Part shown: positions 1 to 14,499 of the stretch, one piece after another
How the letters are laid out: the number at the start of each line of letters is the position of its first letter
Position numbering within the stretch: the stretch's first letter is position 1
IMG/VR virus record: IMGVR_UViG_3300012232_000038
Location: 1-30,305 of that record
Length of the DNA: 30,305 bases
DNA from: a virus
Lineage: Duplodnaviria > Caudoviricetes
Direction: 5' to 3' (one strand)
Position numbers and translations under genes: made by a program
Notes under the pieces: model-generated
Databases searched by the model: none
What the model was told of the DNA's origin: nothing
The model's input: the letters and a program-made list of their open reading frames with translations, nothing else

Positions 1-144
1 GGCATGCAGGCGCTCTACCACTGCAATCAGTTGATTCTGCTGCTGGAGAACGATCTGGCTCCGAAGTCGGATTCGTTTGCTGCCGGCATGGATCGGTTGG
101 TCGGGTTGTGGAGCGAGGTCCAAGCAGGGAGCCGGGTCAGGTAA
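1..144 (+). CDS. 3' fragment of a phage protein, possibly the C-terminus of a ParB-like protein
   Basis: Open frame from base 1 (GMQALYHCNQLILLLENDLAPKSDSFAAGMDRLVGLWSEVQAGSRVR) ending TAA 142-144. The GM..LY..NQLI.L.ENDL pattern recalls C-termini of phage ParB-like proteins (from memory, weak). Confidence 0.5.
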   Translation, partial: GMQALYHCNQLILLLENDLAPKSDSFAAGMDRLVGLWSEVQAGSRVR

Positions 145-248
145 GGCCTGGCACGGCATGGCCGGGCATAGCGAGGTAGGGCAGGGAGCGTGGCGATGCC
201 TGGCGTGGCCGGGCATGGCCGGGCATGGCGAGGCAGGGCGAGGCAGGG
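130..248 (+). repeat. GGY-NN pentanucleotide array in two tracts (VIPR-like guide array candidate)
   Basis: Strict 5-nt phase. Tract 130-186: AGCcg GGTca GGTaa GGCct GGCac GGCat GGCcg GGCat AGCga GGTag GGCag GG. Tract 187-248: AGCgt GGCga TGCct GGCgt GGCcg GGCat GGCcg GGCat GGCga GGCag GGCga GGCag GG. Confidence 0.85.
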
Positions 249-256
249 GTTGTACG

Positions 257-284
257 GCCCCTAAGTAATCGGGGCTCCAGGGGC
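257..284 (+). terminator. GC hairpin between the array and the convergent leftward genes
   Basis: GCCCC 257-261 pairs with GGGGC 271-275, or GCCCCT with AGGGGC 279-284. No U-tract. Confidence 0.35.
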
Positions 285-300
285 GGGTGTGGTGGCTGGT

Positions 301-504
301 TCAGCGATCGTTCCGCCCCTTATTCTTGGCCGTGAACATCAACCAGGCGGCTCGTTCTATCCATCTCGCCTGGACCTCACGGCGCTTATTCACAGGATAA
401 CCGGCCAGGAACCCTCGGTTATTCATCCCGAACAAGCGGTAGAAATCGAGGAGCCGTCTTATTCGCCAGACAGACTGGATCTGCTCAGACGTCAGACCGA
501 TCAT
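301..504 (-). CDS. hypothetical protein
   Basis: 67 aa ORF overlapping the end of the upstream minus-strand gene. Confidence 0.5.
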   Translation of the reverse strand: MIGLTSEQIQSVWRIRRLLDFYRLFGMNNRGFLAGYPVNKRREVQARWIERAAWLMFTAKNKGRNDR

Positions 505-775
505 TCTGTTTCATCTGGTAGAAGGTGGCGACGGCGAAGCGTTGGCGGGAGGGATCGAGGTAGCCGAGGCCGAGCCAGAAGCCACAGTTGCGGGCTTCGA
601 AGTTGCGCTCCAGGGCCCCGGCCAGCTTCCCTTCTAGGTGAAGTTCGCGCAGGGCGACCAAACGCTCTTTGGCCTGATTGTGCTCTTGCTGGAACTCGGG
701 CAGCAGGTTCCAGACGCCGAGTTGTTCGGAGATGTGGACGATCGGCTTCCAGTTCTCGCCACTCAGGTGATCCAT
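485..775 (-). CDS. hypothetical protein
   Basis: Protein-like ORF. ATG at 775 (MDHLSGEN...) is better spaced from GGAGG than ATG 784. Confidence 0.6.
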   Translation of the reverse strand: MDHLSGENWKPIVHISEQLGVWNLLPEFQQEHNQAKERLVALRELHLEGKLAGALERNFEARNCGFWLGLGYLDPSRQRFAVATFYQMKQNDRSDV

Positions 776-885
776 GCTCGGCATCCCTCCAGGGCAGCCT
801 CATCGAGTTGGATCTTGCCCGAGTCCTGGAGGTAGATCGGCCATCCCACTGCTCCCGCCAGACCAGCGAAAGAGGCGGTTTTCAC
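763..885 (-). CDS. small hypothetical protein (40 aa)
   Basis: GTG directly after the stop of 886-1200. MKTASFAGLAGAVGWPIYLQDSGKIQLDEAALEGCRAWIT fills the gap in the operon. Confidence 0.45.
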   Translation of the reverse strand: MKTASFAGLAGAVGWPIYLQDSGKIQLDEAALEGCRAWIT

Positions 886-1200
886 CTAGAGGTCCAAAGA
901 TGCTTGGGGCAACGCTTTGGGGTGGGCTTTCTTGACCATCGGCTTCCTGGTAGCCCGCTTTTTCAGGAGAATCTCGGCGTTTTCAAAGGCTTCCTGAAAG
1001 GTTTTGCCGCGCGCCAACACCCGAGAACCTATGCCACGAGGCGGATCATCCTCTCGGATTCCAACCACCGCCCAGGTCACATACTTGCCAAGGGCCTGGC
1101 TGTAGATCTTGTCCCACCGCGCCCAACCTCCCCACACCGCCCAGCGTCGCTTCGCTTCCGACCTGGCTAGTTTTAGTTCTTCTTGTTCAGCGCTTGTCAA
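886..1200 (-). CDS. hypothetical protein
   Basis: 104 aa ORF with a basic C-terminus, first long gene of the leftward unit. Confidence 0.6.
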   Translation of the reverse strand: MTSAEQEELKLARSEAKRRWAVWGGWARWDKIYSQALGKYVTWAVVGIREDDPPRGIGSRVLARGKTFQEAFENAEILLKKRATRKPMVKKAHPKALPQASLDL

Positions 1201-1408
1201 GCTGGGCCCCCTGCCTAGGATTGGGCTAGCTTCGCTCGTCTAGTATCATACTCAGTAGTGTAATATAAGACAGAAGAAGAAGATACACCCCCAGGCCCAC
1301 CTAAAAGCCAGGTTGTTTCCGCTTCGCGTAGGTGTCAAGGGGTCACGGCGAAGATTTGACAATCTCGACGGGTTTTCCGAGAGTCACGACGGCGGCTTTC
1401 ATGGCCGG

Positions 1409-1437
1409 ATTCTACCCCGAAAATAATCTCCTTGCAA
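1409..1437 (-). promoter_or_regulatory. sigma70-type leftward promoter TTGCAA-17-TAGAAT
   Basis: -35 at 1437-1432, 17-nt spacer 1431-1415, -10 TAGAAT at 1414-1409. Confidence 0.7.
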
Positions 1438-1460
1438 CGCCCACGTTGGTGCATTATGGT
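1432..1460 (+). promoter_or_regulatory. sigma70-type rightward promoter TTGCAA-17-TATGGT
   Basis: -35 at 1432-1437, spacer 1438-1454, -10 at 1455-1460. The first hairpin of the structured region begins at 1466. Confidence 0.6.
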
Positions 1461-1465
1461 TGACT

Positions 1466-1618
1466 CATCCCCCAGCGATAGGGGCGATGGGAACCCGTTC
1501 ACGCACGGGTTCGACGTGCCGAGACCCCGGAGGTGAGCCGAAAGGACGCGGCCTCCCTAGGCCCCTTCGGGGCTCTCGGTTAAGAACCTTTAAGACCGGC
1601 GGGCTTATTAAAGGCCGG
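1466..1618 (+). ncRNA. structured non-coding RNA or 5' leader, family unknown
   Basis: Consecutive stems 1466-1489 and 1491-1512, a multibranch 1519-1579 with GAAA and UUCG loops, and stem 1587-1614. Lies directly downstream of a promoter. Confidence 0.6.
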
Positions 1619-1619
1619 C

Positions 1620-1650
1620 TTGACGACACAACGTAGCGGGTATACGTTGT
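1620..1650 (+). promoter_or_regulatory. promoter TTGACG-17-TACGTT with overlapping inverted repeat
   Basis: -35 at 1620-1625, -10 at 1643-1648. ACAACGTA (1628-1635) and TACGTTGT (1643-1650) are a perfect inverted repeat. GGAGG RBS at 1655-1659. Confidence 0.6.
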
Positions 1651-1664
1651 CATCGGAGGTCCGC

Positions 1665-1838
1665 ATGGCTGGCTACGCGAAGCGCCCCGCTCCGAAGCGT
1701 AGACTCCCCGTCGTTGAGCCCCGCTCCGACGCAGGATTCCTCGTCACCCGCGACACCACCACCGTCAAGCCCCCATCAGCGGAAGAACTGCGTCGCATGA
1801 AAAAGCGCGAGTACCAGCGCCGGAGGAATGTGATCTGA
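1665..1838 (+). CDS. small basic protein (MAGYAKRPAPK...)
   Basis: GGAGG RBS before ATG 1665. Stop overlaps the next ATG. N-terminus shared with 15436-15645. Confidence 0.7.
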   Translation: MAGYAKRPAPKRRLPVVEPRSDAGFLVTRDTTTVKPPSAEELRRMKKREYQRRRNVI

Positions 1839-1984
1839 TGCCGCTTAAAAAGGGCTCCAGCAAGCAGACCATCAGCCAGAACATCAAGACCGAGATGGCC
1901 CACGGTAAGCCGCAGAAGCAGGCGGTCGCGATCGCCCTCAACACCGCCCGCAAGTCCGGGGCGAAGATCCCTCGTAAGAAGTAA
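1838..1984 (+). CDS. small basic phage protein, DUF6496-like (48 aa)
   Basis: MPLKKGSSKQTISQNIKTEMAHGKPQKQAVAIALNTARKSGAKIPRKK. The KQAVAIAL motif is widespread near phage packaging genes. TGATG and TAATG overlaps. Below the ORF-track cutoff. Confidence 0.8.
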   Translation: MPLKKGSSKQTISQNIKTEMAHGKPQKQAVAIALNTARKSGAKIPRKK

Positions 1985-2196
1985 TGGCCCGCGCTCAAGC
2001 CAGAATCTTCCGCATCAACAACCCCGCCGGATGGGCGTGGTCGTTCGATCGGCTCGACACTCCGGACGCCGGGATCGACAACTTCGCCACCGCCGTCAGC
2101 CCCAACGCGGCCCTCGATGCCATCAAGCCACTGATCCAGGTTATGCCCGGCACGCTGTCCAAGATCGACTTCGTCGCGGACACCTTCGAGCCATGA
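1984..2196 (+). CDS. hypothetical protein
   Basis: 70 aa, coupled by TAATG overlap, GC3-rich codons. Confidence 0.7.
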   Translation: MARAQARIFRINNPAGWAWSFDRLDTPDAGIDNFATAVSPNAALDAIKPLIQVMPGTLSKIDFVADTFEP

Positions 2197-2393
2197 TCCT
2201 GTTCTACGACGACGACATCGACGTCATCGTCAGAATCGGCCGTCCACCAGAGTTGGCGGCGGCCATGACGCAGAGCAAGGTCGCTCAGTCATGCGTCGGG
2301 GAAGGAGGCGATAGCAATGTTCTGGTTGCTGGTCCTCATCAACTTCACGGACCTGGGGAGGCCGAGCACCGTACAGTCGATTCCGGCGGATGA
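2193..2393 (+). CDS. hypothetical protein
   Basis: ATGA overlap with the previous stop (MILFYDDDIDVIVRIG...). The 3' part overlaps the next candidate. Confidence 0.4.
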   Translation: MILFYDDDIDVIVRIGRPPELAAAMTQSKVAQSCVGEGGDSNVLVAGPHQLHGPGEAEHRTVDSGG

Positions 2394-2478
2394 GGTCGTT
2401 CATACGACTCCGATGATCGACTGGGATGCCTGGAAGGGTGGTGACCGAAACCCCTACCAGTACAACGACAGACCGTAA
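2317..2478 (+). CDS. small hypothetical protein (53 aa)
   Basis: AGGAGG at 2303-2308 before ATG. Sequence MFWLLVLINFTDLGRPSTVQSIPADEVVHTTPMIDWDAWKGGDRNPYQYNDRP. Confidence 0.45.
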   Translation: MFWLLVLINFTDLGRPSTVQSIPADEVVHTTPMIDWDAWKGGDRNPYQYNDRP

Positions 2479-2579
2479 ACTCCAAAACTGACGGTCCGAT
2501 CACAGCAGGGCGGGGGCGAGGGTTGTTACGAGGGGGAACCTGAGCCAACGCCCTGACTATTTCCAGGGAAGGAGCGGCG

Positions 2580-3005
2580 GTGAACTGGCTGATCAGCTTG
2601 CGGATACTCTTGCGTATCCGCCGGGTCCCTGACAAAGTCGGTGCGATCAGCCTGCGCGCGGTGCTGATCCCGAAATCCTCCATATCGAAAGGGAGTTCGA
2701 TAATGGCCATCACCCCGATCACTTGCGACCTGGCCCACGATGTCCTCTACGCCGCCACGCCCACGGCTGGCGGGAATCCGGTCCCGGCTACCTTGGCCTG
2801 GGCCTCCAGCGACACCGCCATCCTCGAACTGATCGTCAGCCCCGACACCCTGGGATGCCTTGCGATCACCAAGGCGGTCGGCGTCGCCACCGTCACCGTT
2901 TCCAGCGGGTCGGTCTCCGAGTCCCAGGAGGTCACGGTGGTCGCGATCCCGCCGCCCCCGGTGGACGCCATCGGGCTGACCAGCACCATCGTGCCCAAGG
3001 CGTGA
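2580..3005 (+). CDS. Ig-like (Big_2-type) domain protein, alternative start at 2703
   Basis: WASSDTAI...G..AITKAVGVATVTVS...QEVTV matches the Big_2 pattern. RBS-like sequences precede both GTG 2580 and ATG 2703. Confidence 0.7.
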   Translation: MNWLISLRILLRIRRVPDKVGAISLRAVLIPKSSISKGSSIMAITPITCDLAHDVLYAATPTAGGNPVPATLAWASSDTAILELIVSPDTLGCLAITKAVGVATVTVSSGSVSESQEVTVVAIPPPPVDAIGLTSTIVPKA

Positions 3006-3044
3006 GGCTCACCATGCCTTGGAGCAAGGCGTAAACCCCCATCG

Positions 3045-3923
3045 ATGGCTCACGTCGAGTACGGCTGTCCGAACTGCGAATCCGTGATGTACCGCAGCCG
3101 GACGGCCGTTTCGTCGTTGGACTTCAAGCCGCTCCAGACCATCACCTGCAAGAACTGTCTGGCCCAGGTGCCGTGGTTCGAGATGATCCGTAAGTACCTG
3201 AGGACTGAATCGTTGGGGGGTGGCGGGGCGCAGTTTTCAGGCACTCCACCAACTGTGGTGGGATCGGGATCGTTCTACGACGAGACCCACAACACCACCG
3301 TCGTCACGATTCCGGCGGTGACCGCCCTAGCCGGGCAGACGATCCTGGTGGCGGCGATGATCTCGGATGATATCGGGGCTACCGGAGCGGTGATGTTGTG
3401 GAACGGACTCAATCCGGATGGAGCAGATGAGTCAACCACCGGAACACCCACCGCGGGGGGATCGTATTATGCCGCTATCGACGTGGTGTCGTCGGCAACC
3501 AGCGACGTTACGATCACCTGCAATAACCCATTTTCTACCATCAACTCGTGCGCCGCCGTGGCGCTCGTGGTCCCAAACACGAGAGCGCCATCAATGGACG
3601 CGGTGGCCGTTCGTAGCTCGTTCGGTAGCGGAACCGGGACCACGTCATCAACCAGCCAGGACGGAACGCCTAGCCGGATTCCAGCTATCGCCATCGCTGC
3701 TAATGGCACCCTGGGACCACTGGGCGACGTTGCGGGTTCCTGGACCGACTCTTTCATGGACTTAGTTCGGGTTGGCACGGCCGGGGCGACCGACACCAAG
3801 AACAGCACGATGTCGGTTGGATTCAAGTTCCTGACTAGTCAGATTCCGGTAAACGTCGGCAAGGCGGGGTTTACCAATCGTCAATGGTGCGTGATCCAGC
3901 GCCCACTGAAGCTGGTGGGATGA
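3045..3923 (+). CDS. Zn-ribbon N-terminus plus beta-rich C-terminal domain (putative virion accessory/adhesin)
   Basis: CPNC...CKNC, a Gly linker, then a Thr/Ser/Gly-rich beta-type domain. Confidence 0.75.
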   Translation: MAHVEYGCPNCESVMYRSRTAVSSLDFKPLQTITCKNCLAQVPWFEMIRKYLRTESLGGGGAQFSGTPPTVVGSGSFYDETHNTTVVTIPAVTALAGQTILVAAMISDDIGATGAVMLWNGLNPDGADESTTGTPTAGGSYYAAIDVVSSATSDVTITCNNPFSTINSCAAVALVVPNTRAPSMDAVAVRSSFGSGTGTTSSTSQDGTPSRIPAIAIAANGTLGPLGDVAGSWTDSFMDLVRVGTAGATDTKNSTMSVGFKFLTSQIPVNVGKAGFTNRQWCVIQRPLKLVG

Positions 3924-4669
3924 GCCATATCGAGTACCTGTGCGCCAAGTGCAAGAGCGTCCTGAACCGCGGCCTCAGCCTCTACTCCGACAAGAGCTTT
4001 CATCCGCTCCAGAAGATCCGCTGCCGTCGCTGCGGCTACACCATGAAGTGGTACGAGATGATCGAGCGCAAGACCCGGGTCAAGCTGGAGGGCGGGCCGC
4101 TGGTGATTCCAAGCCTCCAACAGACCCTGTTTGCTACGGGTGGCAGAGAGATCCTGATCGCCGATGACTTCGGCGGCGACTCGCTGATCGAGAACTTCGA
4201 TGTCAATACCGCCGCCGGAACCCACGATGGCAGCGATGTCACCCAAGACTCGGCGCACTGGCTAGATGGCTTCCTGACTGCCTCCAGCGGTCACGTCGAA
4301 GTCATTTATGCAATGGACCCGGTGACATTCACTGGCGCAATCGACTTCGTCCGCTGGCATCTCCGCGCCTGGTTCGAGGAGTTGAGCGGCACGGCCCATA
4401 TTCGGCAGATCAGCGGGGTCTGGGTGGTGGCAGGTTTTGGAGCGACCAATACGGTAGCGACCAGGAACATGACCGGCATCAACAGTCCGACCGGCATCGA
4501 CCTCGACGTGACCGTGAACCCCAACACCGGCCAGCCGTGGACTGCGGCGCAACTCAACACCCGGAGCTTTGGGATGCAGTTGGATCACTTTACGCTGGAC
4601 CCGGCCGGGACCGGAACCGAGACCTTCATGCGGTGCAGCGAGTTCTGGATCGAAATCTGGGGGCACTGA
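3920..4669 (+). CDS. Zn-ribbon N-terminus (paralog of 3045-3923) plus different beta-rich domain
   Basis: ATGA overlap. CAKC...CRRC. NPNTGQPWT motif in the C-terminal domain. Confidence 0.75.
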   Translation: MSHIEYLCAKCKSVLNRGLSLYSDKSFHPLQKIRCRRCGYTMKWYEMIERKTRVKLEGGPLVIPSLQQTLFATGGREILIADDFGGDSLIENFDVNTAAGTHDGSDVTQDSAHWLDGFLTASSGHVEVIYAMDPVTFTGAIDFVRWHLRAWFEELSGTAHIRQISGVWVVAGFGATNTVATRNMTGINSPTGIDLDVTVNPNTGQPWTAAQLNTRSFGMQLDHFTLDPAGTGTETFMRCSEFWIEIWGH

Positions 4670-5292
4670 TGAGCGATCTGACCATGGACCGAGATGTCAT
4701 GCTGGACCGAATGGAAAAGGCCAGGTCCAAACGCTTACCCGATAGGTCTATGCCGAAACCCGAACCAGAGAAGAAGCGCTTCACCGCCGATGAGATCGAA
4801 CAGTTCCTGCACGAAATCGCCGCCGATCCCAGCTCGGGAGCCGATCGGTTCCGCGCCATCAAGATGCTCCGCGGCCAGGGCGAGGCCGAAGGGGACGCTC
4901 TATTGGCTGACGAGGACGTGCAGAACTTCCTGACCATCGAGATGAAGGCGCTCGGCTCGGTCCGGGTGCAGGCGGCCTACAAGAAGGCTTTTCCGAGCCA
5001 GAAGGCCCCGGAGTTCTCTGAGCCCAGGATCGACGAATCCATGCTCTCCAAGGAGGCGATGGAGCGGGTTCGCCGTTGCCTCAACCTGAGGCTGCTATAC
5101 AAGATTTACCCACAGACCAAGCGCAGTGGGTTTCCACCCGGGTATCCGGTTGGCCGTGGGGTAGAAGTCATCAAGGAGTGGGCGCAGCGCATGGCCATGA
5201 AGATTGAGGTGGACCGCGAGATGGCCGTCATCGGACCAAGGAAGGTCAATGGGAACCCAGGGCTGGAGATCCAGCCAGACGCTCCACGGTGA
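4669..5292 (+). CDS. putative terminase small subunit
   Basis: TGATG overlap. Helical charged protein immediately upstream of TerL. EIEQFLHEIA...DRFRAIKML resembles the TerS oligomerisation region. Confidence 0.55.
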   Translation: MSDLTMDRDVMLDRMEKARSKRLPDRSMPKPEPEKKRFTADEIEQFLHEIAADPSSGADRFRAIKMLRGQGEAEGDALLADEDVQNFLTIEMKALGSVRVQAAYKKAFPSQKAPEFSEPRIDESMLSKEAMERVRRCLNLRLLYKIYPQTKRSGFPPGYPVGRGVEVIKEWAQRMAMKIEVDREMAVIGPRKVNGNPGLEIQPDAPR

Positions 5293-7006
5293 TCCCAAGG
5301 CCAGACGGGCTCTAATCCGCCACGTCTGCCTCAAGGACTTCTGGGCGTTCTTCTGCTACGGCTTCGGGGCCTACGTGAACCCCAAGGGCGAGCGCTGGAT
5401 CGACCCCGAGGTCCACGAGCCGATGGCGCGCTGGTTTCAGAAGCACGTCGATGATTGGTTCCAGAAGCGCGAGAAGGGCCGGGGCGAGCAGAAGCATCTC
5501 GCCATTCTGGTCCATCGCGAGGTCGGCAAGACCACCATGTTCACCCTGGCCGGGCAGGCATGGCTCCATCTTCGTGACCCGGAGATCAGCACCTACATAG
5601 GCTCAGAATCACTGAAGCAGTCCCAGGACATGCTGGCCGCGATCAAGGCCGTGCTCGATGGCTCGGACCCCTACGCTCTGTTCCCCAAGCTCTACGGCAA
5701 CTGGTCCAGTCAGGCGAGAACCTGGACCGGGGTTCAGGTGGTCCATGCTGCGAGGAAGAACACCGCGCGCCGCGACCCCAGCATCGGCACTTTCGCGGTC
5801 GAGACCAGCATCGTCGGTGCCCATCCGGACGCCATCTTCTATGACGATCCGATCAGCTATCCCAGACTCAGAAGCGACACCAACTGGCTCAATGCGGTCA
5901 ATGTTCAGGTCGACTCCCTGATTCCGGTCATCCAGTCGGACGGACTGGTCGTCTGGATCGGCACCCGCTACGACGACATGGATCACTTCGGCCGGGCGTT
6001 CCGCGAGCAGGGGGTGGCGACCCTGGAGGGCATGGAGACCGACTCCATCACCCCGACCGTGGATGGCATGTGGCACGCCTACTTCATGGCCGGACGAAAG
6101 CGGGAGACTAACCAGGAACACCCCAAGGGCATCCCCAGCACCCCCAAGGTCTGGTCCGAGCGCCGCATGGCGAGCTACGAAAAGACCAACCCGATTGAGT
6201 ACGCCTCCCAGGTCATGAACGATCCGACCAGCTCCGGCCACAATCCGCTGACCATCGAACAGACCAGGCAGAGGCTCGTCAAGGCTAGCGACGTGCCCTG
6301 GAGCAGTCTCCGCTACGCCATCTGCTGCGATACCGCCTTCTCAGACGGCCACCGCATCGTGGGCAAGGACGAGACGGTGATGATCGTCCACGGCTACCCC
6401 CGAAACGGCTCCGGGGACGTCTACGTCATCGAGGGCTACGGAAGCTCAACCTGGAGGGCGGAGGACTTCGCCAACCAGTTGATCGCCCTGGTCCAGCGCT
6501 ACCGCAGGATGGGAAGGCATGTGTTCGCAATCACCGACGAGGTCACCCACGCCGGCAAGAAGGAGGCATGGAACATGGCCCTGGTCAGCCGGTTCAACGA
6601 CGCCGGCATCCCGATGCCCAGAGGCAAACTGATGGAGTTCCGCCGCGGCGGAAGTCAGGGTCGGAAGGGGGGCAACGACGGGAGACTGGTCACCGCCGCC
6701 AGCTTCTGGGTGGACAACCACGTCTGGTGCGTCGAGGGAGCCCCCGGGATCGACCGGTTGATGAGCCAGATGGCCCAGATCGGCCAGTACCTAATCAACG
6801 ACAAGATCAAGATTGACTGGGCCGATGCGCACGCCGATGCGTTCCAGCCCGATCTTTACCAGCCCATGCTCCGACACGAACGCAAGGGCGGTCTGCTGTC
6901 CGGAGCAAGGATCATCGAGGAGGACGGCGTGGACGGGCGGATGTGGATGGACGACGAATACAGCCAGTGGCGAGACGAGAATCCGAGACCTCCGGAGGGC
7001 CGGTGA
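5249..7006 (+). CDS. terL: terminase large subunit
   Basis: Walker A HREVGKTT, Walker B IFYDDP, GTRY coupling motif, RNase H-like nuclease acidic motifs ICCDTAFS, DETV and DWADA. RBS before ATG 5249. Confidence 0.92.
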   Translation: MGTQGWRSSQTLHGDPKARRALIRHVCLKDFWAFFCYGFGAYVNPKGERWIDPEVHEPMARWFQKHVDDWFQKREKGRGEQKHLAILVHREVGKTTMFTLAGQAWLHLRDPEISTYIGSESLKQSQDMLAAIKAVLDGSDPYALFPKLYGNWSSQARTWTGVQVVHAARKNTARRDPSIGTFAVETSIVGAHPDAIFYDDPISYPRLRSDTNWLNAVNVQVDSLIPVIQSDGLVVWIGTRYDDMDHFGRAFREQGVATLEGMETDSITPTVDGMWHAYFMAGRKRETNQEHPKGIPSTPKVWSERRMASYEKTNPIEYASQVMNDPTSSGHNPLTIEQTRQRLVKASDVPWSSLRYAICCDTAFSDGHRIVGKDETVMIVHGYPRNGSGDVYVIEGYGSSTWRAEDFANQLIALVQRYRRMGRHVFAITDEVTHAGKKEAWNMALVSRFNDAGIPMPRGKLMEFRRGGSQGRKGGNDGRLVTAASFWVDNHVWCVEGAPGIDRLMSQMAQIGQYLINDKIKIDWADAHADAFQPDLYQPMLRHERKGGLLSGARIIEEDGVDGRMWMDDEYSQWRDENPRPPEGR

Positions 7007-8184
7007 TCGCTAAGCAGCGCTTCAACTGTCGGCTCTGTGATGGGACATTTCGCCCGGTGCTATCACTCGGCGACCAATACCTGGTCCGCTTCCCCGACAA
7101 GATCGACGAATCATTGCCCAAGGCCCCACTCAGCCTGGTCCAGTGCGAGTCCTGCCATCTGCTCCAGCTAGAGCACACCACCAACCCCGACCTGCTGTTC
7201 CGGGAGTTCTACTACCGGAGCGGGATCAATCAGACCATGCGGGACGCGCTCCAGGACGTGGTGGACGACGCCTCGCACTATGTCCGCAAGGGGGTCTGGC
7301 TCGACATCGGGGCCAACGACGGGTACCTACTTTCCTGTCTGCCCGATGGTTGGATCAAGATCGCCTGTGAACCGGCGCAGAACTTCCGGCCCAACCTGGA
7401 GGAGCACGCCGACCATGTCATCTCGGACTACTTCTCGGCGGACCACGACTGTCTCTGGGACAAAACCCGGGGCCGCTGCGACGTCGTTACCTCGGTGGCC
7501 TGCTTCTACGACGTGGACGATCCCAACGAGTTCGTGGCCGACGTGGCCGAAGTCATGGCCCCGGGCGGGGTCTGGATCAACCAACTCAACGACTCCCCGA
7601 CCATGCTCAAGCGCAATGCCTTCGATTCCGTGTGCCACGAGCATCTGGTCTACTACGATATCCACAACCTGGCCCAGCTTTACGCCAAGCACGGCCTGGT
7701 CATCACCAAGATCAGCTTCAACGAGGTCAACGGCGGCTCGGTCCGCATCTTCGCCCATAAAGAGGTCTCGGGCCTCCAGCCGATGAATCTGCTGGGGGTC
7801 CCCAGGGTGAGCCCGGAGGCGGCCGGCGCCTTCGCCAGTCGCGTCAAGCGCTGGAAGCAGGAGATGGGCAACTACCTGAACAGCCTCAAGACTGGAGTCT
7901 GGGGCTACGGGGCCAGTACCAAGGGCGCGGTATTGCTCCAGTATCTCGATTGCGACGACCGGATCGTTGCGATCGCCGACCGGAACCCGACCAAGCACGG
8001 CAAGATGATGGTCGGCAGCTGGGCTCCGATCGTCGGCGAGGCCGAGATGAGGGTGGCGACTCCGCCCCACGTCCTGGTGCTGCCGTGGGCGTTCAAGGAT
8101 GAGTTCACCGAGCGCGAAGCGGAGACCAGGGCCGCTGGTTCGGTGTTCATCTACCCGCTACCCCAGATCGAGATTCAGCTATGA
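7003..8184 (+). CDS. NDP-sugar C-methyltransferase (TcaB9/NovU/EryBIII-like, Methyltransf_13/14 architecture)
   Basis: Zn site CRLC/CESC, LDIGANDG SAM motif, FDSVCHEH, NGGSVR, YGASTKG, DRNPTKHG, LPWAF, YPLP. GTGA overlap with terL. Confidence 0.9.
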   Translation: MIAKQRFNCRLCDGTFRPVLSLGDQYLVRFPDKIDESLPKAPLSLVQCESCHLLQLEHTTNPDLLFREFYYRSGINQTMRDALQDVVDDASHYVRKGVWLDIGANDGYLLSCLPDGWIKIACEPAQNFRPNLEEHADHVISDYFSADHDCLWDKTRGRCDVVTSVACFYDVDDPNEFVADVAEVMAPGGVWINQLNDSPTMLKRNAFDSVCHEHLVYYDIHNLAQLYAKHGLVITKISFNEVNGGSVRIFAHKEVSGLQPMNLLGVPRVSPEAAGAFASRVKRWKQEMGNYLNSLKTGVWGYGASTKGAVLLQYLDCDDRIVAIADRNPTKHGKMMVGSWAPIVGEAEMRVATPPHVLVLPWAFKDEFTEREAETRAAGSVFIYPLPQIEIQL

Positions 8185-8894
8185 GGTGGCAGGGGGCCTT
8201 CTTTGACGGCCGGGTCAAGATGGTCAAGCCGGGAGAGGATCTGCCCGAGCACATCTCGGCCCCACGCAAAGGCCACCGCCCGTCCTACCCCAACGGCTTC
8301 ATCTCGTCCTGGGCGGCCGATCTTTTCCCCGAGGGGTACAAAGGTCATGCGATTGACGTCGGGGCCAGCGACGGCATCTCGATCTCCTCGACCTACGTGC
8401 TGGAGAAGTGGGCTGGATGGCATGTGCTTTGTGTCGAGGCCAACCCGTTCTTCAAGCCGTTTCTGAAGCAGAGCCGCATGTTTGTGGAGATGTGCGCCTG
8501 CGGCGCTGAGCCGATGGACGAAGCCACGTTTTACGTCAATGAGGTGCGTCCCGAAGCCTGGTCAGCGCTTCAGATCACGCCGGGATTTCGGGAGCGGGCC
8601 AAGGTGCTCAAGACCAAGGGCGAAGGAGTCGAGTGGTCCTCCCACAAGGTAAGAGTCGATACGGTGGATCGGCTCCTGACCAAGTGGGGGTTCCCCAAGC
8701 TCGACGTGCTGTTCGTGGACGTCGAGGGTCATGAGACGGCGGTGCTTCAGGGTGCGGCACTCGACAAGTGGAAGCCCAAGGCAATGGTGGTCGAGAACTG
8801 GAAGGCCGGATTCACCGACGACTACCTCAAGGGTTTCGGCTACAAGCGGGTGGCCCGATCGGTGGACAACGATTTCTATGTCAGAAACGACTAG
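8181..8894 (+). CDS. FkbM-family methyltransferase (Methyltransf_21)
   Basis: IDVGASDG, CVEANP, LFVDVEGHE.AVLQG. Confidence 0.9.
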   Translation: MRWQGAFFDGRVKMVKPGEDLPEHISAPRKGHRPSYPNGFISSWAADLFPEGYKGHAIDVGASDGISISSTYVLEKWAGWHVLCVEANPFFKPFLKQSRMFVEMCACGAEPMDEATFYVNEVRPEAWSALQITPGFRERAKVLKTKGEGVEWSSHKVRVDTVDRLLTKWGFPKLDVLFVDVEGHETAVLQGAALDKWKPKAMVVENWKAGFTDDYLKGFGYKRVARSVDNDFYVRND

Positions 8895-8985
8895 CCAGCA
8901 CGGAGAAGAACGCCTGGTCCGGGCGTATTTTCCACCCGGGTTCAAGGGTCACGCCTGTGACATCTACGTAAAGGAGACCGCATGA
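8878..8985 (+). pseudogene. internally deleted second FkbM methyltransferase (35 aa remnant)
   Basis: MSETTSQHGEERLVRAYFPPGFKGHACD|IYVKETA aligns with FPEGYKGHAID and the C-terminal FYVRND of the upstream FkbM. Confidence 0.7.
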
Positions 8986-9821
8986 GCGAGATTGTGTTCA
9001 CGTTTCCGGGCAAGGCGGGAGACGCGCTCCATCAGTGGCCAGTTGCTTACCACTGGGCCAAGCAAGCCGGCCAGAAGTTCACCTGCTGGATGGACGAGCG
9101 GTCGTGCAAGATCGTGGCCCCGCTGTTCGCGGCGCAGCCCTGCGTGGAGAAGATCGAGTTCAAGCCCGGGGTGGAGACCTATAGCTGTGGTGGTCAGCCC
9201 TTCCACTTCGACCTCGACACCAAGGAGTTCATCGGCAGGACGGTCTACCACCTGGGCTTGAGGAGCTTCCCCCAGCGCCAGCTAACCCTCCACTGCCTGG
9301 CCGACTCCGGGGTGCCGGTCAAGGTGGAGCCCAGCGTCCTGGCGGACGAGCCCAGCCTGGTCGTCAATCCGCAGGAGAAGCGGAACCGGGTCATTTTGCA
9401 TGGGCAGGCGGTATGCCCTCACACCCGGGCGACGCCGGGATTCTGGAAGTTCCTCTACTCCATCCGGAAAGACCTGGAGGAGCGCTTCGAGGAGATCGTG
9501 TTCGTGGGCAGCGAGCGGGATCGCGAGGTGGCCACCCGGACCTATCCCCAGTGGCAGACCTTCGATGACAAGGGCGACTTCTCGGTCCTGGCCGACTACA
9601 TGGCGGCCTCTGAGCTGGTGATCGGGGTTGGCTCCTCGGTGGTGGTGCTGGCCAGCCTGCTCAAGGTGCCCAGCATCCGGGTCCACGACCCGATCTCAGA
9701 CGCCCCCAAGGCGATCTGGGAGAACCTTCAGCGGGTCCATATGAACGACACCGAGAACGAGCTTCGCAAGCTCTGGCCAGCGTGGCGGGACGAGCATTTT
9801 CCGGTCAAGGTAGCTGTGTGA
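8982..9821 (+). CDS. GT-B glycosyltransferase, GT9 (heptosyltransferase)-like
   Basis: N-terminal GKAGDALHQWP and C-terminal LADYMAASELVIGVGSSVVVLASLLKVP resemble GT9 motifs. Confidence 0.75.
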   Translation: MSEIVFTFPGKAGDALHQWPVAYHWAKQAGQKFTCWMDERSCKIVAPLFAAQPCVEKIEFKPGVETYSCGGQPFHFDLDTKEFIGRTVYHLGLRSFPQRQLTLHCLADSGVPVKVEPSVLADEPSLVVNPQEKRNRVILHGQAVCPHTRATPGFWKFLYSIRKDLEERFEEIVFVGSERDREVATRTYPQWQTFDDKGDFSVLADYMAASELVIGVGSSVVVLASLLKVPSIRVHDPISDAPKAIWENLQRVHMNDTENELRKLWPAWRDEHFPVKVAV

Positions 9822-10075
9822 GTGGCGGTCAGCCAACGCTGGGGAGCCTCGTGGATCACCTGATCGTGGTCAGCATGAAGCTCTGGGCGGTCCAGGATAA
9901 GGTCAATCTGGCGGCCCGAACGGACCGGGGGATTGATCCAGTCACCACTCGACAGCTATTCGACCTGAACTTGGACAGAAATCAGACCATGACCGAGATC
10001 GACCAGCTTCTGGCCGAGTCGGTCAAAACGGGCACCGCCAAGGTGGACCCGAGGATCAAGTTGACTGGCGACTAA
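9818..10075 (+). CDS. DUF4254-like helical protein
   Basis: TLGSLVDHL....KLW..QD....LNLDRNQ...EID pattern. GTGA overlap with the GT9 gene. Confidence 0.65.
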   Translation: MSGGQPTLGSLVDHLIVVSMKLWAVQDKVNLAARTDRGIDPVTTRQLFDLNLDRNQTMTEIDQLLAESVKTGTAKVDPRIKLTGD

Positions 10076-10124
10076 AACCGCCTTAGCGTAAGACGTTGAT
10101 GAAGTTGGGGACAGGGAGGTCCCG

Positions 10125-12044
10125 GTGGCGCAAGGTAAGTACCCTTCGGGCGAGATACCGCTAGAGCGCCAGGCCGTTTCCGCGGCGCGCATCATCGAAC
10201 TGGTTGACAGTCGCCGGCAAGATAGTATCCGGTACAACGCCGGTCTGTTCAACAAGTTGAAGTCCTACTACGACACCTATCGGGGTCTGTGGTCGGGCAA
10301 GATCAACCAGTTCAGGAACCAACTTTCGATCCCCTTCACCTTCGCGATGATCCAGTCGGACGTCGCTCGCAAGGTTCAGACCAGCTTCGGGGCCTGGCCG
10401 ATTGTCAGCTTCGAGGGCTACGCCCCCGAGGATGTGGCCAGGGCCAAGAAGAACGAAGTCCTGATCTCGGCCCAGATGAAGGACTGCGACTCGATTGTTC
10501 GCGCCGTGGACTTCTTCCTCCAAGCCGACATCTGCGGCACCGGAATCGCCCGCTTCGGCTGGAAGAACATCTCCCGCAAGAACAAGTACCGGAAGATGGA
10601 GCAGATTGCTCCCGGCCTGAGCGTCCCGGTGGTCTACGAGGAGCAGGCCGAAATCTTCAACGGTCCGGTCTGGGAGGCGGTCGATCGGCTCGACTTCTGG
10701 CAGCAGCCCGGAATCAAGCGCATCGACGACATGGCCTGGGTGATCCATCGCTATTGGGCGGACCTCGATGATCTGGAGGAAGACGCCAACAGCGACAACC
10801 CCTACTTCGATCCCCGTGCCGTCCGGGCCCTGAAAGAGACCCCGCTGACCGGAGCTGGATACCGCGAGTTCATCGAGCGGCGGACCGCGTTCCGCAACGA
10901 GTTCGACTACATCGCCCGCCAGAACGAGCGCTTCGCCAAGCCGATCGAGATTTGGGAGATGCACGGTCTGGTGCCGTCCGAGTTCTCCACCGATGGGGTC
11001 CGGAGTCGATGCATCGCGATCGGCAACGGCCGGGTGGTACTGAAGAACCGCGAAGGGGCGATGGCCAACCAGCAGAAGCCCTTCCTGGCCTACGCCCCGA
11101 TGCCCGACCCCTACAGCTTCGATGGGATCGGTAAGGCCGAGATCGCCTACGGCCCGCAGCGCACCATCGACCGCATCGGCAACCAGAAGCTGGACGCCGT
11201 CGATCTCCTGATCGATCCGATGTACGTCGCCTCCGACTCCGCTCTCAACAATCAATCCCAGAACCTGTTTACCCGAGCAGGGCGGGTGATCCTGGTCAGC
11301 GGCCCAGCCGACGAGTCCAATATCCGAGCGCTCCAGCCCAACATGCAGGGCGTTCAGTTGGCCTACTCGGAGATGGCCCAGCTTCACCAGTTCATGCAGG
11401 TGGGGATGGGGTTGAACGACATCATCATGGGGATGCAGACCGGCGAGCGTGAAACCGCTCGGGGAACCCTGGCCCGCCAGGAAAATGCTCTGACTCGGCT
11501 GGGCATGGAGACCGCTCTGGCCGAGCAGGGATTCATCGAGCCCCTGGCCAACGCCTTCCGTCGCATGGACCAGCTTTGGCTGCCGCTACCCCAGGAACTG
11601 AAGATCCTGGGCAGCATGGCCTTCATCAACCCGATCACTGGACTCCCCTATCCGCAGGATTCGGTGCAGATCGACCACGACGATCTGGCCCCCGACTACC
11701 GGGCCCGGGCGGTGGGGGCCAGCCAGATGATGGGCAAGTCGGTCAAGCAGCAGAACTTCCTGGCCCTGTTCCAGTTCCTGAACAGCAACCCGGTCTTGAT
11801 GCGGATGGTCAACTGGGCCAGCTTCGCCCGCCAGGCGTTCGAGTTGTTCGACTTCAAGAACGTGGACGAGCTTCTGGTCCAGACCGTACCGATGATCAAC
11901 CAGTTGGCCCAGGACACCGGACAGAGCCCGATGGCAGTTGCTGGCATGGCGAGCCAGGACCTGCCGCAACTGAGCCCAGAGATTCTGGGCCAGATGTTCC
12001 AGAGCCAGGGACCGGGCAGTCTGCCGGCGCTGTCCGCGGCATGA
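10125..12044 (+). CDS. portal protein (P22/SU10-like)
   Basis: 639 aa in the expected position. GTGIARFGW, DFWQQP, IEIWEMHG, FDGIGKAE and ETARG motifs, Gln/Met-rich tail. Confidence 0.9.
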   Translation: MAQGKYPSGEIPLERQAVSAARIIELVDSRRQDSIRYNAGLFNKLKSYYDTYRGLWSGKINQFRNQLSIPFTFAMIQSDVARKVQTSFGAWPIVSFEGYAPEDVARAKKNEVLISAQMKDCDSIVRAVDFFLQADICGTGIARFGWKNISRKNKYRKMEQIAPGLSVPVVYEEQAEIFNGPVWEAVDRLDFWQQPGIKRIDDMAWVIHRYWADLDDLEEDANSDNPYFDPRAVRALKETPLTGAGYREFIERRTAFRNEFDYIARQNERFAKPIEIWEMHGLVPSEFSTDGVRSRCIAIGNGRVVLKNREGAMANQQKPFLAYAPMPDPYSFDGIGKAEIAYGPQRTIDRIGNQKLDAVDLLIDPMYVASDSALNNQSQNLFTRAGRVILVSGPADESNIRALQPNMQGVQLAYSEMAQLHQFMQVGMGLNDIIMGMQTGERETARGTLARQENALTRLGMETALAEQGFIEPLANAFRRMDQLWLPLPQELKILGSMAFINPITGLPYPQDSVQIDHDDLAPDYRARAVGASQMMGKSVKQQNFLALFQFLNSNPVLMRMVNWASFARQAFELFDFKNVDELLVQTVPMINQLAQDTGQSPMAVAGMASQDLPQLSPEILGQMFQSQGPGSLPALSAA

Positions 12045-12232
12045 GAAGCCCGGCGCATTACCGCAGCACCAGGCGATCCAGCTTCCGCCGCTGGCTGGCC
12101 GAGCCGTTGGGATGTTTGGTCTGTGGGGCGGAGGCGGTCTATGTTTTTCCCTGCAAGTTCACTCGAAAGGGAGGCGAGACTATTCTTCCTTGTCACCGTT
12201 GTGGAGCGCGGACCCTGGAGACGGTGTGCTGA
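12041..12232 (+). CDS. small CxxC-CxxC Zn-finger protein
   Basis: ATGA overlap with the portal stop. CLVC...CHRC. Confidence 0.55.
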   Translation: MRSPAHYRSTRRSSFRRWLAEPLGCLVCGAEAVYVFPCKFTRKGGETILPCHRCGARTLETVC

Positions 12233-12531
12233 CTCCAGAGCAAGCGCAGCAGGTTCAGATCGTGCTGTCACTCGGAGGATGGCGAGAGGTCATGAAGCCC
12301 GCCTTGCTGACGAGGCGGGACAACGCGAATCGGGCTCTGGTGATGACGCCTACCGAACGTATGGCCAAGCTCAAGGGCTCGGGTTTCGACCTGGCCGATG
12401 AGGACCTGAGGGCCACGATTCGCGACTGTGAGTGGCTGGTCACGATCTGGGACGTCGAGATTCAGGCGTACCAGCACAATCAGCAGCGCGACGAACTCGA
12501 CGCTGCCAATCGACCTCCGGCGAACCCGTGA
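12226..12531 (+). CDS. conserved small head-module protein
   Basis: GGAG RBS before GTG. Helical protein (GWREVMKPAL) in the typical portal-scaffold position. Confidence 0.7.
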   Translation: MLTPEQAQQVQIVLSLGGWREVMKPALLTRRDNANRALVMTPTERMAKLKGSGFDLADEDLRATIRDCEWLVTIWDVEIQAYQHNQQRDELDAANRPPANP

Positions 12532-12547
12532 GGAAGGAGACTCAAGG

Positions 12548-13246
12548 ATGAGCGAACCGACGAACATTCCTGATCCGGCACCCGACCTGGCGGGATATCC
12601 CAGCACCGACGCTTTGGTGCATGGCTACCGTCAGTCTGGAGCCGAGGCCCAGCGCCAGAAGGCGAGGGCGGACGCTGCCGAGCAGCAGTTGGCCATGCTC
12701 TCTGCGAACCAGAAGCAGGCCCCTCAGGGCAATCCGTATGATCCGGCCAGCGAGCTGGAGACGCTGGGCATCCCGCTCCGCGCCCTCGATGCCTACGTCG
12801 AGAGCAAGGTGCAGGGCAGGATCGCTGAGGCGTTCCAGCCGATTGCGGCCGGATTCACAGCCCGGGGCAAGGTGGCGGCCGAACACCCCGACTACCTGAA
12901 GTACGAGCAGGACGTCGCTTCGTTCATCAACTCTGACCCACAGACCGCGCAGGCGTACAACAAGATGTTCAGCGCCGATCCGGTGGGAGCGATGGAATAT
13001 GCCTACCTCAAGTTCGGTGATTCTCGCCGACGGGCCAGACCCTCCCCGAACGGGAGCCCGGAGCAGGCCGTCCATGCCAGCATCCCGAGCGCGAGGCACG
13101 GCGATAGCCGTCGCGCCCCGGATCATGAAGATTCCGTTCGTGCAGCCTACGAGCGGTATCAGCAGACGGGCAGTCCCCGTGACGCTGTGGTGTACGCCAA
13201 GGCGCGGTTGAGAAACGTCGTCACGGATGAGTTCCTGAACCAGTAA
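12548..13246 (+). CDS. capsid scaffolding protein
   Basis: Coiled-coil start, HPDY motif, C-terminal YERYQQTGS.RDA. Directly upstream of the MCP. Confidence 0.75.
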   Translation: MSEPTNIPDPAPDLAGYPSTDALVHGYRQSGAEAQRQKARADAAEQQLAMLSANQKQAPQGNPYDPASELETLGIPLRALDAYVESKVQGRIAEAFQPIAAGFTARGKVAAEHPDYLKYEQDVASFINSDPQTAQAYNKMFSADPVGAMEYAYLKFGDSRRRARPSPNGSPEQAVHASIPSARHGDSRRAPDHEDSVRAAYERYQQTGSPRDAVVYAKARLRNVVTDEFLNQ

Positions 13247-13270
13247 TCAGGACTCGGAGGCCATAAGGAT

Positions 13271-14212
13271 ATGGCTGGCTCAACCACCTATGACGTCGGC
13301 TTTTGGCCCTCAGCCACTGCGCCGACTCACGAGGACCTGGTCGATATCGTGACCATCCTCGATTCGTTCCAGACGCCGTTCTTCTCCTCGGCTCCGAAGA
13401 ATCGAGCCCGGGACGTCATCCACTCGTGGACCGTCGATACCCTGGCGGCTACTGCGACAGCGGGTGACACGGAGACCACGGCCTTCGTTGCCGACACTCT
13501 CACCGCCCCGACCCGTCTGTTCAACGTCACCCAGATTTTCCGGCGTGACGTCGAGGTGTCGGACCGCGAGCGGGCATCGAATGTCGCCGGTATCCGCGAT
13601 ATGTACGAGCATCAGATCATGAAGGAGTTCAAGGTCCTGGCCCGGAACGTCGAGGCTCGCATCTTCGCGAGCACGCTGGCGTCTACTGGCACGGCCTCGG
13701 GCGACAACACGACTGCGTCTCGTATGTCCGGTATCCGTGGCTTCGCCATCATCACGGCAAGCTCGGCCTCCGGCGGTGTCACCACCGCGGACATCGTCAC
13801 CCTCTCGGAGGCGTTGTTCAATGCCGGTGCCGAACCGGACAGCATCTGGTTCGCGCCGGCCTCGAAGCGCCAGTTCGTCAATGCCACCGTCTCCAGCGGT
13901 TCGGGCAACGTGCGGAACATCGCGGCGACCGACCAGAAGCTGGTGGCGAACATCGACGTGTTCGAGACGCCGTTCAACCAGCTCTACGCCGTCATCACCG
14001 ATCGGTTCATCCCGATCAGCACCAACTCGGCGTCGGGTGCTTACTTCATCGGTGACCGCTCGATGGCCAAGGTCAGCTTCTTCCGGCCGCCGCAGCACAA
14101 GCCGATGGGCAAGGTCGCGGATAGCACCCGCGGCCTGGTTCTGATGGAACTCACGCTCCAGCTCGACCATCCGTCGTCTTGGGCGGCCATGACCGGAGTG
14201 ACCAACGCTTAG
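13271..14212 (+). CDS. major capsid protein (DUF5309/SU10-type)
   Basis: EDLVDIV...TPFFS, HSWTVDTL, NVTQIFRRDVEVS, RMSG, ELTLQ motifs. Confidence 0.9.
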   Translation: MAGSTTYDVGFWPSATAPTHEDLVDIVTILDSFQTPFFSSAPKNRARDVIHSWTVDTLAATATAGDTETTAFVADTLTAPTRLFNVTQIFRRDVEVSDRERASNVAGIRDMYEHQIMKEFKVLARNVEARIFASTLASTGTASGDNTTASRMSGIRGFAIITASSASGGVTTADIVTLSEALFNAGAEPDSIWFAPASKRQFVNATVSSGSGNVRNIAATDQKLVANIDVFETPFNQLYAVITDRFIPISTNSASGAYFIGDRSMAKVSFFRPPQHKPMGKVADSTRGLVLMELTLQLDHPSSWAAMTGVTNA

Positions 14213-14227
14213 TACCCCGTCGCGGAG

Positions 14228-14253
14228 GGGGCTGGGGGCTCGTCCCTGGCCCC
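14228..14253 (+). terminator. GC-rich hairpin after the MCP (terminator or stabiliser)
   Basis: GGGGCTGGGGG-CTCG-TCCCTGGCCCC, 11 bp with G-U pairs. No U-tract. Confidence 0.5.
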
Positions 14254-14276
14254 TGAAGCGATGGAAGGAGGACAAA

Positions 14277-14498: not shown

Positions 14499-14499
14499 T

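What the first reader, a model, noticed from the sequence alone, without database searches (positions are those of the whole stretch)
1466..1618. Unassigned ~150-nt structured RNA at the head of the morphogenesis operon
Seen: hairpin CATC-CCCC/GGGG-GATG (1466-1489). Hairpin GAACCCGT/ACGGGTTC (1491-1512) competes with GCACG-GGTTCGA-CGTGC (1503-1519). Multibranch closed by CCGAGA/TCTCGG, containing GGAGG/CCTCC with a CC-GAAA-GG tip and a UUCG hairpin. Stem CCTTTAA/TTAAAGG (1587-1614) whose loop CCGG could pair with CCGG at 1615-1618 as a pseudoknot. GNRA and UUCG loops read on the plus strand, and the element sits between two promoters. Inference: standalone phage ncRNA (packaging, antitermination or decoy) or a conformational leader switch. 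I cannot match it to a known family.
Basis: partly seen in the sequence, partly recalled or inferred. Interest (0 to 1): 0.7.

Follow-up and report, generated by a model that had tools for sequence, protein, structure and literature searches.

The report
Hairpin-rich leader of phage late operon
About 150 non-coding bases between two predicted promoters at the start of an uncultured phage's virion-building genes are predicted to fold into a row of hairpins that match no Rfam family and no relative we could find, and they likely serve as a long untranslated leader of the late message, not as a ribozyme or packaging RNA.

Summary
Its multibranch costs 12 kcal/mol over the best fold (a 16-pair stem), the pseudoknot is sterically implausible, and the tetraloop count is at chance level. 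Folding beats shuffles only modestly (z -2.0 to -3.3 by boundary, similar on both strands). Rfam finds nothing. No homolog turned up in the viral, metagenome, GTDB, phage or plasmid searches, so covariation could not be tested, and no transcript data were available. There is no U-tract terminator, ribozyme core or put signature. Relatives give the context: 13 of 14 hand-picked late-operon heads carry 82-307-nt GC-rich leaders of unrelated sequence, and one has the same promoter-RNA-promoter layout. Best reading (0.45): a long, self-folding 5' leader of the late mRNA that likely tunes its output. A standalone small RNA (0.22) or a functionless spacer (0.20) remain open. Side finding: relatives carry a covarying crossed-helix leader before their replication-initiator-like gene.

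The parts
1409..1437 (-). Leftward sigma-70-like site, 9 of 12; shares its palindromic -35 with P1 and points away from the element
1432..1460 (+). P1, predicted promoter; +1 expected at about 1466-1467
   Evidence: own weighted scan; 8 of 12, so not listed; same -35 type and spacing at the late heads of L083 and L122
1466..1489 (+). Hairpin A, 8 bp with one bulged C; starts at the predicted +1
1491..1512 (+). Hairpin B, 8 perfect pairs, one unpaired G after hairpin A
1518..1580 (+). Domain C: 16-pair stem with one bulge; top poorly defined, a three-way junction with a GAAA tip and a hairpin at 1550-1563 is nearly iso-energetic
   Evidence: z -3.09 on +, -2.21 on -
1587..1623 (+). Domain D: two mutually exclusive hairpins (1587-1614 or 1590-1623); no U-tract follows; the longer form overlaps the -35 of P2
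   Evidence: z -1.72, 13 of 200 shuffles as stable; no + strand terminator
1620..1648 (+). P2, predicted promoter of the type found at most relatives' late heads; gives a leader of about 11 nt
1628..1650 (.). Perfect 8-bp inverted repeat across the spacer and -10 of P2: operator-like on DNA, or a fifth hairpin in a P1 transcript
1655..1838 (+). Shine-Dalgarno (1655-1659) and first late gene (1665-1838; 57 aa, basic, no family)
1838..1984 (+). Second late gene, 48 aa, phrog_2423 / DUF6496
5252..7006 (+). Terminase large subunit; portal (10125-12044), major head protein (13271-14212) and endolysin (25747-26151) follow on the same strand

Best explanation
The stretch is non-coding DNA between two predicted promoters and is likely transcribed as the first 150 of about 200 bases of a long 5' leader on the phage's late (virion-building) message, where it is predicted to fold into self-contained hairpins that likely tune how much of that message survives and is translated. 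Steps. SHOWN: no gene-like coding signal; two promoter-like sites; no U-tract terminator; position directly before the plus-strand gene run to terminase, portal and capsid. INFERRED: lacking a terminator, polymerase runs on into the late genes. The folds keep the G/C-rich leader, including an anti-Shine-Dalgarno-like CCUCC at 1552-1556, paired within itself, so the ribosome site at 1655-1659 is not locked. P2 yields the same message with an 11-nt leader, so the phage would have two late isoforms of different stability or translation.
For: Non-coding: codon scores -0.33 and -0.35 for the overlapping ORFs against +0.19 to +0.52 for the next four genes; none of the three ORFs over the element is in the protein collection, while the genes at 1665 and 1838 are. 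Promoters: 2 sites in 1400-1665 against 0.022 expected; 5 of the 6 plus-strand sites of the whole window lie in 1194-1620. No plus-strand terminator in 1100-2100, and hairpins without a U-tract did not terminate mycobacterial polymerase (PMC3993855, abstract). Family context: 13 of 14 hand-picked late heads in terminase relatives have leaders of 82-307 nt. In the nine leaders of 82-95 nt the longest stem ends 15-29 nt before the start codon (6 of 9 at P<=0.05 against 60 base shuffles). The ribosome-site zone is less paired than in shuffled leaders in 13 of 14, the window included (Wilcoxon p = 0.0006). L122 has the same P1-RNA-P2 layout. A 5' hairpin can stabilise downstream mRNA (PMC3997798, passages).
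Against: No transcript data. P1 matches only 8 of 12, and its -35 may be a by-product of the leftward promoter. Three further plus-strand sites lie upstream (1194, 1221, 1356), so the 5' end is uncertain. P2 would make the long leader dispensable. Only 3 of 13 relatives' leaders fold at z <= -2 (range -2.99 to +1.24), and ten short leaders give no consensus structure. A paired 5' end is not a family trait (8 of 14, p = 0.24). In the full-length equilibrium fold the window's own 5' end is unpaired (0.03 against 0.40 in shuffles) and its ribosome-site effect is small (0.52 against 0.59). Open ribosome sites are a general property of genes (own knowledge). The late heads were picked by eye, some may not be true operon heads (L127, L138), and some are related (L112, L113).
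Confidence: 0.45

Rival explanations
1. A standalone small RNA cassette: P1 makes a 115-155-nt RNA whose 3' end is set by processing, Rho or polymerase bound at P2; it acts in trans (decoy, scaffold or antisense), while P2 alone drives the late genes.
For: P2 is the family-type late promoter and sits just before the first gene, so the P1 segment looks like an add-on. L122 has the same layout with a longer, unrelated RNA, and L085 has a segment closed by a long stem and a short T-run at its late head (read by eye). Compact core 1466-1580 at z -3.25. 5'UTR-derived small RNAs are reported in Pseudomonas phages (10.1101/2023.10.13.562163, passages).
Against: No terminator. No homolog in any search. 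No shared sequence with L083 or L122 beyond scattered columns. Folding is equally good on the other strand.
Confidence: 0.22
2. No RNA function: a G/C-rich spacer between tandem promoters whose inverted repeats are incidental or act as DNA sites.
For: Helix and tetraloop counts at chance level; blind-tiling z of -2.03, not among the 15 lowest of 189; strand-symmetric folding; no conservation found; operator-like palindrome at P2.
Against: z -2.4 to -3.3 in four plus-strand tests, while two neighbouring non-coding stretches score +0.69 and +0.77; hairpin A begins at the predicted +1; long leaders recur in relatives.
Confidence: 0.2
3. A put-like, RNA-only antiterminator: the two promoter-proximal hairpins bind host polymerase and carry it through the 25-kb late operon.
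For: Two stems split by one G at the predicted start, as in the earlier put model (PMC9378689, passages). No Q family PF06530 in 0 of 35 relatives, 14 of them near-complete, with the control ringing in E. coli. No antiterminator family among 91 proteins scanned.
Against: The hairpins span 47 nt, not about 70; the conserved 5' duplex and the -10-like element at +23 to +28 are absent. Terminator-like sites in 1400-20000 are no more than in shuffles (9 against 11.3, only 3 on the plus strand). P2 would bypass the element.
Confidence: 0.08
4. A ribozyme, ligand-sensing riboswitch or phi29-type packaging RNA.
For: Near-iso-energetic three-way junction with a GAAA tip; loop B resembles an HDV-like L3 loop; alternative pairings exist.
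Against: No Rfam match down to E = 10 except four weak unrelated ones, best Pxr at 23.4 bits against a cut-off of 80. No hammerhead core or HDV-like descriptor match on either strand. No terminator or stable ribosome-site lock to act on. Conventional large terminase.
Confidence: 0.05

Closest known systems
Long structured 5'UTRs and 5'UTR-derived small-RNA candidates of virulent phages (Putzeys et al., 10.1101/2023.10.13.562163; passages read)
   Same: Promoter-led non-coding stretch under 250 nt in front of phage genes, including structural genes; may give both a short RNA and read-through.
   Different: Those were defined by mapped starts and premature stops and are conserved among relatives. 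Here neither end is mapped, no terminator is predicted and no homolog was found.
5'-stem-loop mRNA stabilisers such as the ompA and aprE leaders (review PMC3997798; passages and reference titles)
   Same: A hairpin begins at the predicted +1 and the ribosome site stays outside the stable folds.
   Different: Four to five hairpins over 200 nt. The 5' hairpin holds in prefixes up to 1626 but weakens in longer equilibrium folds. Untested.
HK022 put RNA (PMC9378689; passages read)
   Same: Two adjacent stems with one G between them, directly after a sigma-70-type promoter; no Q found in relatives.
   Different: 47 nt against about 70; no conserved 5' duplex, no -10-like pause element; a second promoter lies downstream.
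Lambda late gate: PR' promoter, short transcript ending at tR', read through with Q (recalled, not from a call)
   Same: About 200 non-coding bases between a host-type promoter and the late genes.
   Different: No intrinsic terminator here, no PF06530 Q in 35 relatives, and a second promoter next to the first gene.

Membership tests
Any Rfam 15 family | Match at or above the gathering score | tested here: not met
   0 matches in the window; best weak match Pxr, 23.4 bits against 80, E 0.081
HK022 put RNA | Two adjacent stem-loops with a G at their junction, just downstream of a promoter | tested here: met
   Hairpins A and B with G1490 between them
HK022 put RNA | About 70 nt with the conserved 5' duplex, and a -10-like element at +23 to +28 (putL) | tested here: not met
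   47 nt; neither motif at those positions for a start at 1463 or 1467 (sequence; features)
HK022 put RNA | Binds the beta' zinc-binding domain and suppresses termination | not testable with these tools
   needs transcription assays
Hammerhead ribozyme | Conserved core around stem II | tested here: not met
   (motif recalled, no positive control); no Rfam hit
HDV-like / theta ribozyme | Nested double pseudoknot with the catalytic C first in J4/2 (PMC10879173, passages) | tested here: not met
   (descriptor written from memory, no positive control); an L3-like loop at 1498-1504, but no catalytic C or P2 partner after the long stem
HDV-like / theta ribozyme | Adjacent tRNA (theta subgroup) | tested here: not met
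   0 tRNA or tmRNA genes in the window
phi29-type packaging RNA | phi29-like packaging motor without a nuclease-bearing large terminase (recalled) | tested here: not met
   584-aa large terminase, phrog_38 at E 5e-42; Terminase_6C-type look-alikes
Terminator-bounded small RNA or attenuator | G/C hairpin followed by a U-tract | tested here: not met
   no plus-strand site in 1100-2100
Crossed-helix leader before the relatives' replication-initiator-like gene (model R2, built here) | Contiguous helix of 13-27 bp crossed by a second helix | tested here: not met
   longest contiguous helix 9 bp; R2 finds no match in the window
Structured 5' leader of a phage operon | Non-coding, promoter upstream, same strand as the operon, no terminator | tested here: met
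   the promoter is predicted only
Structured 5' leader of a phage operon | Transcribed and continuous with the first gene | not testable with these tools
   needs RNA from infected cells; host unknown
Conserved structured RNA of any kind | Compensatory base changes among homologs | tested here: inconclusive
   no homolog to align; the closest relative with upstream DNA is 69% identical in terminase

The most novel reading that the evidence does not exclude
A new kind of phage RNA device: in a large uncultured phage family with no detected Q protein, the head of the late operon holds fast-evolving folded RNAs, and this one is either a standalone small RNA between two promoters or an RNA-only switch that licenses late transcription. 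The motif GUUCRA, found in this leader and in both relatives with the same P1 type (4 in 14 leaders against 0.6 expected, noticed after the fact), would then be a shared T-loop-like contact.
Probability: 0.2. Interest if true: 0.7.

Novelty: new member of a known kind. Interest (0 to 1): 0.3.

Why it matters
As a leader it is a modest result: one more long structured phage 5'UTR, in a family where such leaders seem to be the rule but share no sequence. It would matter more if it were a standalone RNA or an RNA-only antiterminator, because put is the protein-free example known to me and no Q was detected in 35 relatives. The family-level patterns (late leaders of 82-95 nt with a stem ending 15-29 nt before the start codon; the covarying crossed-helix leader before the replication-initiator-like gene) are better supported than the element itself and can be tested with reporters.

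Tried and rejected
Known families: Rfam on the window, on ten relatives' loci and on the L122 leader: nothing at threshold. ARAGORN: none. Hammerhead and HDV-like descriptors: none. Likenesses to c-di-GMP-I, pistol, hatchet, SRP and T-arm motifs were considered by eye from memory and dropped: no Rfam support and the key bases do not line up.

Homolog searches, all negative: INPHARED blastn, 2 fragments at E 0.3 and 3; INPHARED tblastn with terminase, none; plasmids, 5 fragments at E >= 0.5; IMG/VR patterns, 0, 48 and 12 matches, none similar outside the pattern; GTDB pattern, 15 matches against about 17 expected by my arithmetic, none similar in the flanks. nhmmer and blastn on 81 and 109 loci. 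Model R1, built from one sequence (the window and the identical record L082), so insensitive: 100 loci (best E 0.054 and 1.4, many broken pairs), 8 loci (best E 0.15), 0 of 36 whole records with 4 more not held and no positive control. blastn on the same records: self found, 4 of 35 others with 14-21-nt fragments. The first gene has no homolog in the protein search (weak tblastn likenesses in L166 and L083), the leftward neighbour none in IMG/VR, and loci of the third gene gave no matching leader.

Protein-coding reading: rejected. Flanking direct repeats or a mobile cassette: none convincing. N/nut-like control by the arginine-rich first gene: its weak homologs lie away from any leader; not pursued. 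Family-wide 5'-end protection: not supported. Consensus fold of short late leaders: none; weak with seven sequences. My crossing-helix score was non-specific for the window and was replaced by contiguous-helix counts.

Expression: no RNA holder listed. The one DNA run covers 1-3000 in one contig with no differing letter in the element, and may be this DNA's source. Literature: 7 searches answered; none aimed at or showed this element. Supplements of PMC10690425: no hit for 6 short terms in 6 files, and 3 files were not searched, so that catalogue may still hold it.

Full report
SETTING. The window is a 30,305-base linear virus record, 71% complete by CheckV. Plus-strand genes for a large terminase (5252-7006), portal (10125-12044), major head protein (13271-14212) and endolysin (25747-26151) were found with PHROGs. 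The terminase has 197 relatives at E <= 1e-30, the best non-self one 80% identical, and none among 50,697 INPHARED records at E <= 1e-20; the host is unknown. The element lies in the gap between a leftward gene (886-1200) and the first rightward gene (1665-1838). One contig of the only listed run covers 1-3000 without a differing letter in the element; it may be this DNA's source.

THE OBSERVATION. All listed helices exist at the given coordinates. Hairpins A (1466-1489, with a bulged C) and B (1491-1512) are well defined. The best fold is a 16-pair stem, 1518-1533 with 1564-1580, whose top is undecided; a three-way junction with the GAAA tip and a hairpin at 1550-1563 is within 0.6 kcal/mol. 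The two cannot plausibly coexist as a pseudoknot: no base separates the two 3' strands and 2 nt would have to span about 11 stacked pairs (my geometric reasoning).

IS IT MORE THAN CHANCE? The other strand gives -2.28 and -3.20. Two neighbouring non-coding stretches give +0.69 and +0.77, one further gap -2.16 and another -0.69. In a blind tiling (189 windows, 25 shuffles each) the element scored -2.03 and was not among the 15 lowest. Helix counts and tetraloop counts are at chance level. The strand therefore rests on promoter geometry and a small G-U asymmetry in domain C (-3.09 against -2.21).

NON-CODING AND PROMOTER-FLANKED. ORFs over the element score -0.33 and -0.35 in a codon model trained on this phage; the next four genes score +0.19 to +0.52. 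The three overlapping ORFs are not in the protein collection, while the first two late genes are. P1 and P2 match 8 of 12 and are missed by the consensus scanner. My weighted scan finds both, against 0.022 expected, and finds six plus-strand sites in the window: five in 1194-1620 and one before the portal (threshold chosen after the fact). P1 shares a palindromic -35 with a leftward site of 9 of 12. No plus-strand terminator lies in 1100-2100.

NO FAMILY, NO HOMOLOG. Rfam gives nothing at gathering score and four weak unrelated matches at E <= 10. ARAGORN and my ribozyme descriptors give nothing (descriptors from memory, no positive control). Three IMG/VR pattern scans, one GTDB scan, blastn of phage and plasmid collections, and a one-sequence covariance model over 100, 15, 60 and 8 loci and 36 whole records found no homolog. 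The model is insensitive, and the nearest relative with upstream DNA (L083) is only 69% identical in terminase. Covariation, the decisive test, could not be run.

WHAT RELATIVES SHOW. Terminase-based scans gave 50 and 60 loci, overlapping and including the window's own record. Of 38 relatives mapped I could place a late-operon head by eye in 14; the rest were truncated or unclear and were left out. 13 of the 14 have 82-307 nt between promoter and first start codon; L087 has 20. Their sequences are unrelated to the window's, 3 of 13 fold at z <= -2, and ten short ones give no consensus structure. Two positional patterns appear. In the nine leaders of 82-95 nt the longest stem (8-13 bp) ends 15-29 nt before the start codon, 6 of 9 at P <= 0.05. 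The ribosome-site zone is less paired than in shuffles in 13 of 14 leaders counting the window (p = 0.0006). Against my first idea, a paired 5' end is not general (8 of 14, p = 0.24), and in the window's full-length equilibrium fold the 5' end is open, though hairpin A holds in nearly all prefixes up to 1626. L122 repeats the P1-RNA-P2 layout, and L083 has a P1-type promoter with a 132-nt leader and no P2. No Q (PF06530) was found in 35 records, 14 of them at least 90% complete, with the control ringing in E. coli; no antiterminator, reverse transcriptase or transposase family appeared among 91 proteins scanned against Pfam.

MECHANISM. Most likely (0.45) the element is the front of a 200-nt leader on the late mRNA from P1. 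It folds into local hairpins, does not terminate, leaves the ribosome site unlocked and likely tunes stability or translation, while P2 supplies a short-leader isoform. Shown: non-coding status, position, promoter-like sites, absence of a U-tract. Predicted: the folds. Inferred: transcription and function. Rivals: a standalone or processed small RNA (0.22), favoured by P2's position and by L122; a functionless or DNA-level spacer (0.20), favoured by the weak statistics; a put-like antiterminator (0.08), which fits the two-stems-one-G start and the missing Q but fails put's length and motifs; a ribozyme, riboswitch or packaging RNA (0.05).

COMPARISON AND NOVELTY. It works like a long structured phage 5'UTR and is a member of no catalogued family tested. 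Papers: PMC9378689, PMC10879173, PMC3997798 and 10.1101/2023.10.13.562163 as search passages; PMC3993855 as abstract and outline; PMC10690425 as listing plus a term search of 6 supplement files, with 3 files unread that could hold this element or the replication leader. The lambda late gate, phi29 packaging RNA and ribozyme cores are recalled. Earlier scan notes describe similar layouts in other phages; they are unchecked leads. None matched this sequence or genome.

SIDE FINDING. At least nine relatives carry a leader of about 115 nt after a promoter and before a replication-initiator-like gene (DUF1376 below cut-off in two of them). It has a contiguous helix of 13-27 bp crossed by a second of 7-13 bp. 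In three alignable copies 4 of 22 pairs change on both sides and 97% of cells pair (7 of 500 shuffles; slid controls 29-44%), which is suggestive with only three sequences. A model from these three weakly recovers other copies at the same position (E 0.035-0.055) and one new site in L134, and nothing in the window. Ten relatives' loci, four of which hold this leader, gave no Rfam match.

VERDICT. Interest 0.3.

Noticed in passing
L117:1788-1905+, L153:3167-3282+, L157:2665-2790+, L174:6734-6848+, L173:5288-5398-, L175:1846-1963+, L089:2300-2412+, L180:2289-2400+, L139:6061-6182+: Recurrent promoter-proximal leader of about 115 nt before a replication-initiator-like gene: two crossing helices (7-13 and 13-27 bp), a T-run in several copies; 4 of 22 pairs covary in three alignable copies; no Rfam match in the four loci scanned; absent from the window fragment.
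   Followed up: partly
L112:8534-8632, L113:8716-8812, L104:5814-5911, L138:3156-3254, L098:199-301, L153:4901-4993, L139:7500-7599, L084:7250-7340, L116:3267-3356: Late leaders of strikingly similar length (82-95 nt) with one long G/C stem ending 15-29 nt before the start codon, but no alignable sequence.
   Followed up: partly
L122:7603-7944+; L111:2348-2689+; L085:515-630+: Longer RNA candidates at the same position: L122 between two promoters with no Rfam match; L111 with 306 nt at z -2.1; L085 closed by a 9-bp stem and a short T-run.
   Followed up: partly
window 1509-1514; L083, L122 and L127 leaders: The hexamer GUUCRA occurs in 4 of 14 late leaders against 0.6 expected, including all three with the P1-type -35; none sits in a canonical T-arm; noticed after the fact.
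   Followed up: partly
window 1286-1329; L113:5927-5969: A 44-nt non-coding stretch 82% alike in L113, in the leftward leader near a minus-strand terminator-like site (1308-1287); the only non-coding match to a relative within the 1200-1665 gap.
   Followed up: no
window 145-248: Degenerate five-base repeat tract after the first gene; similar tracts in L113 and L099.
   Followed up: no
window 1320-1331 and 1673-1684: Perfect 12-bp inverted repeat pair, one arm in the leftward leader and one in the first late gene.
   Followed up: no
window 10061-10125: A further promoter-like site before the portal gene, kept at the same place in many relatives.
   Followed up: no
L084, L085, L103 late heads: A shared 9-base motif near the start of three otherwise unrelated leaders (by eye).
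   Followed up: no
P0018, P0072, P0097, P0113: Terminase relatives of 925-950 aa carrying PF14890, three also PF14528; by my recall intein and homing-endonuclease domains.
   Followed up: no
L001:1-2120; window 8181-8894 and 15642-16952: Tandem methyltransferase-like genes before terminase in L001 (by eye); a methyltransferase and a glycosyltransferase within the window's late operon.
   Followed up: no
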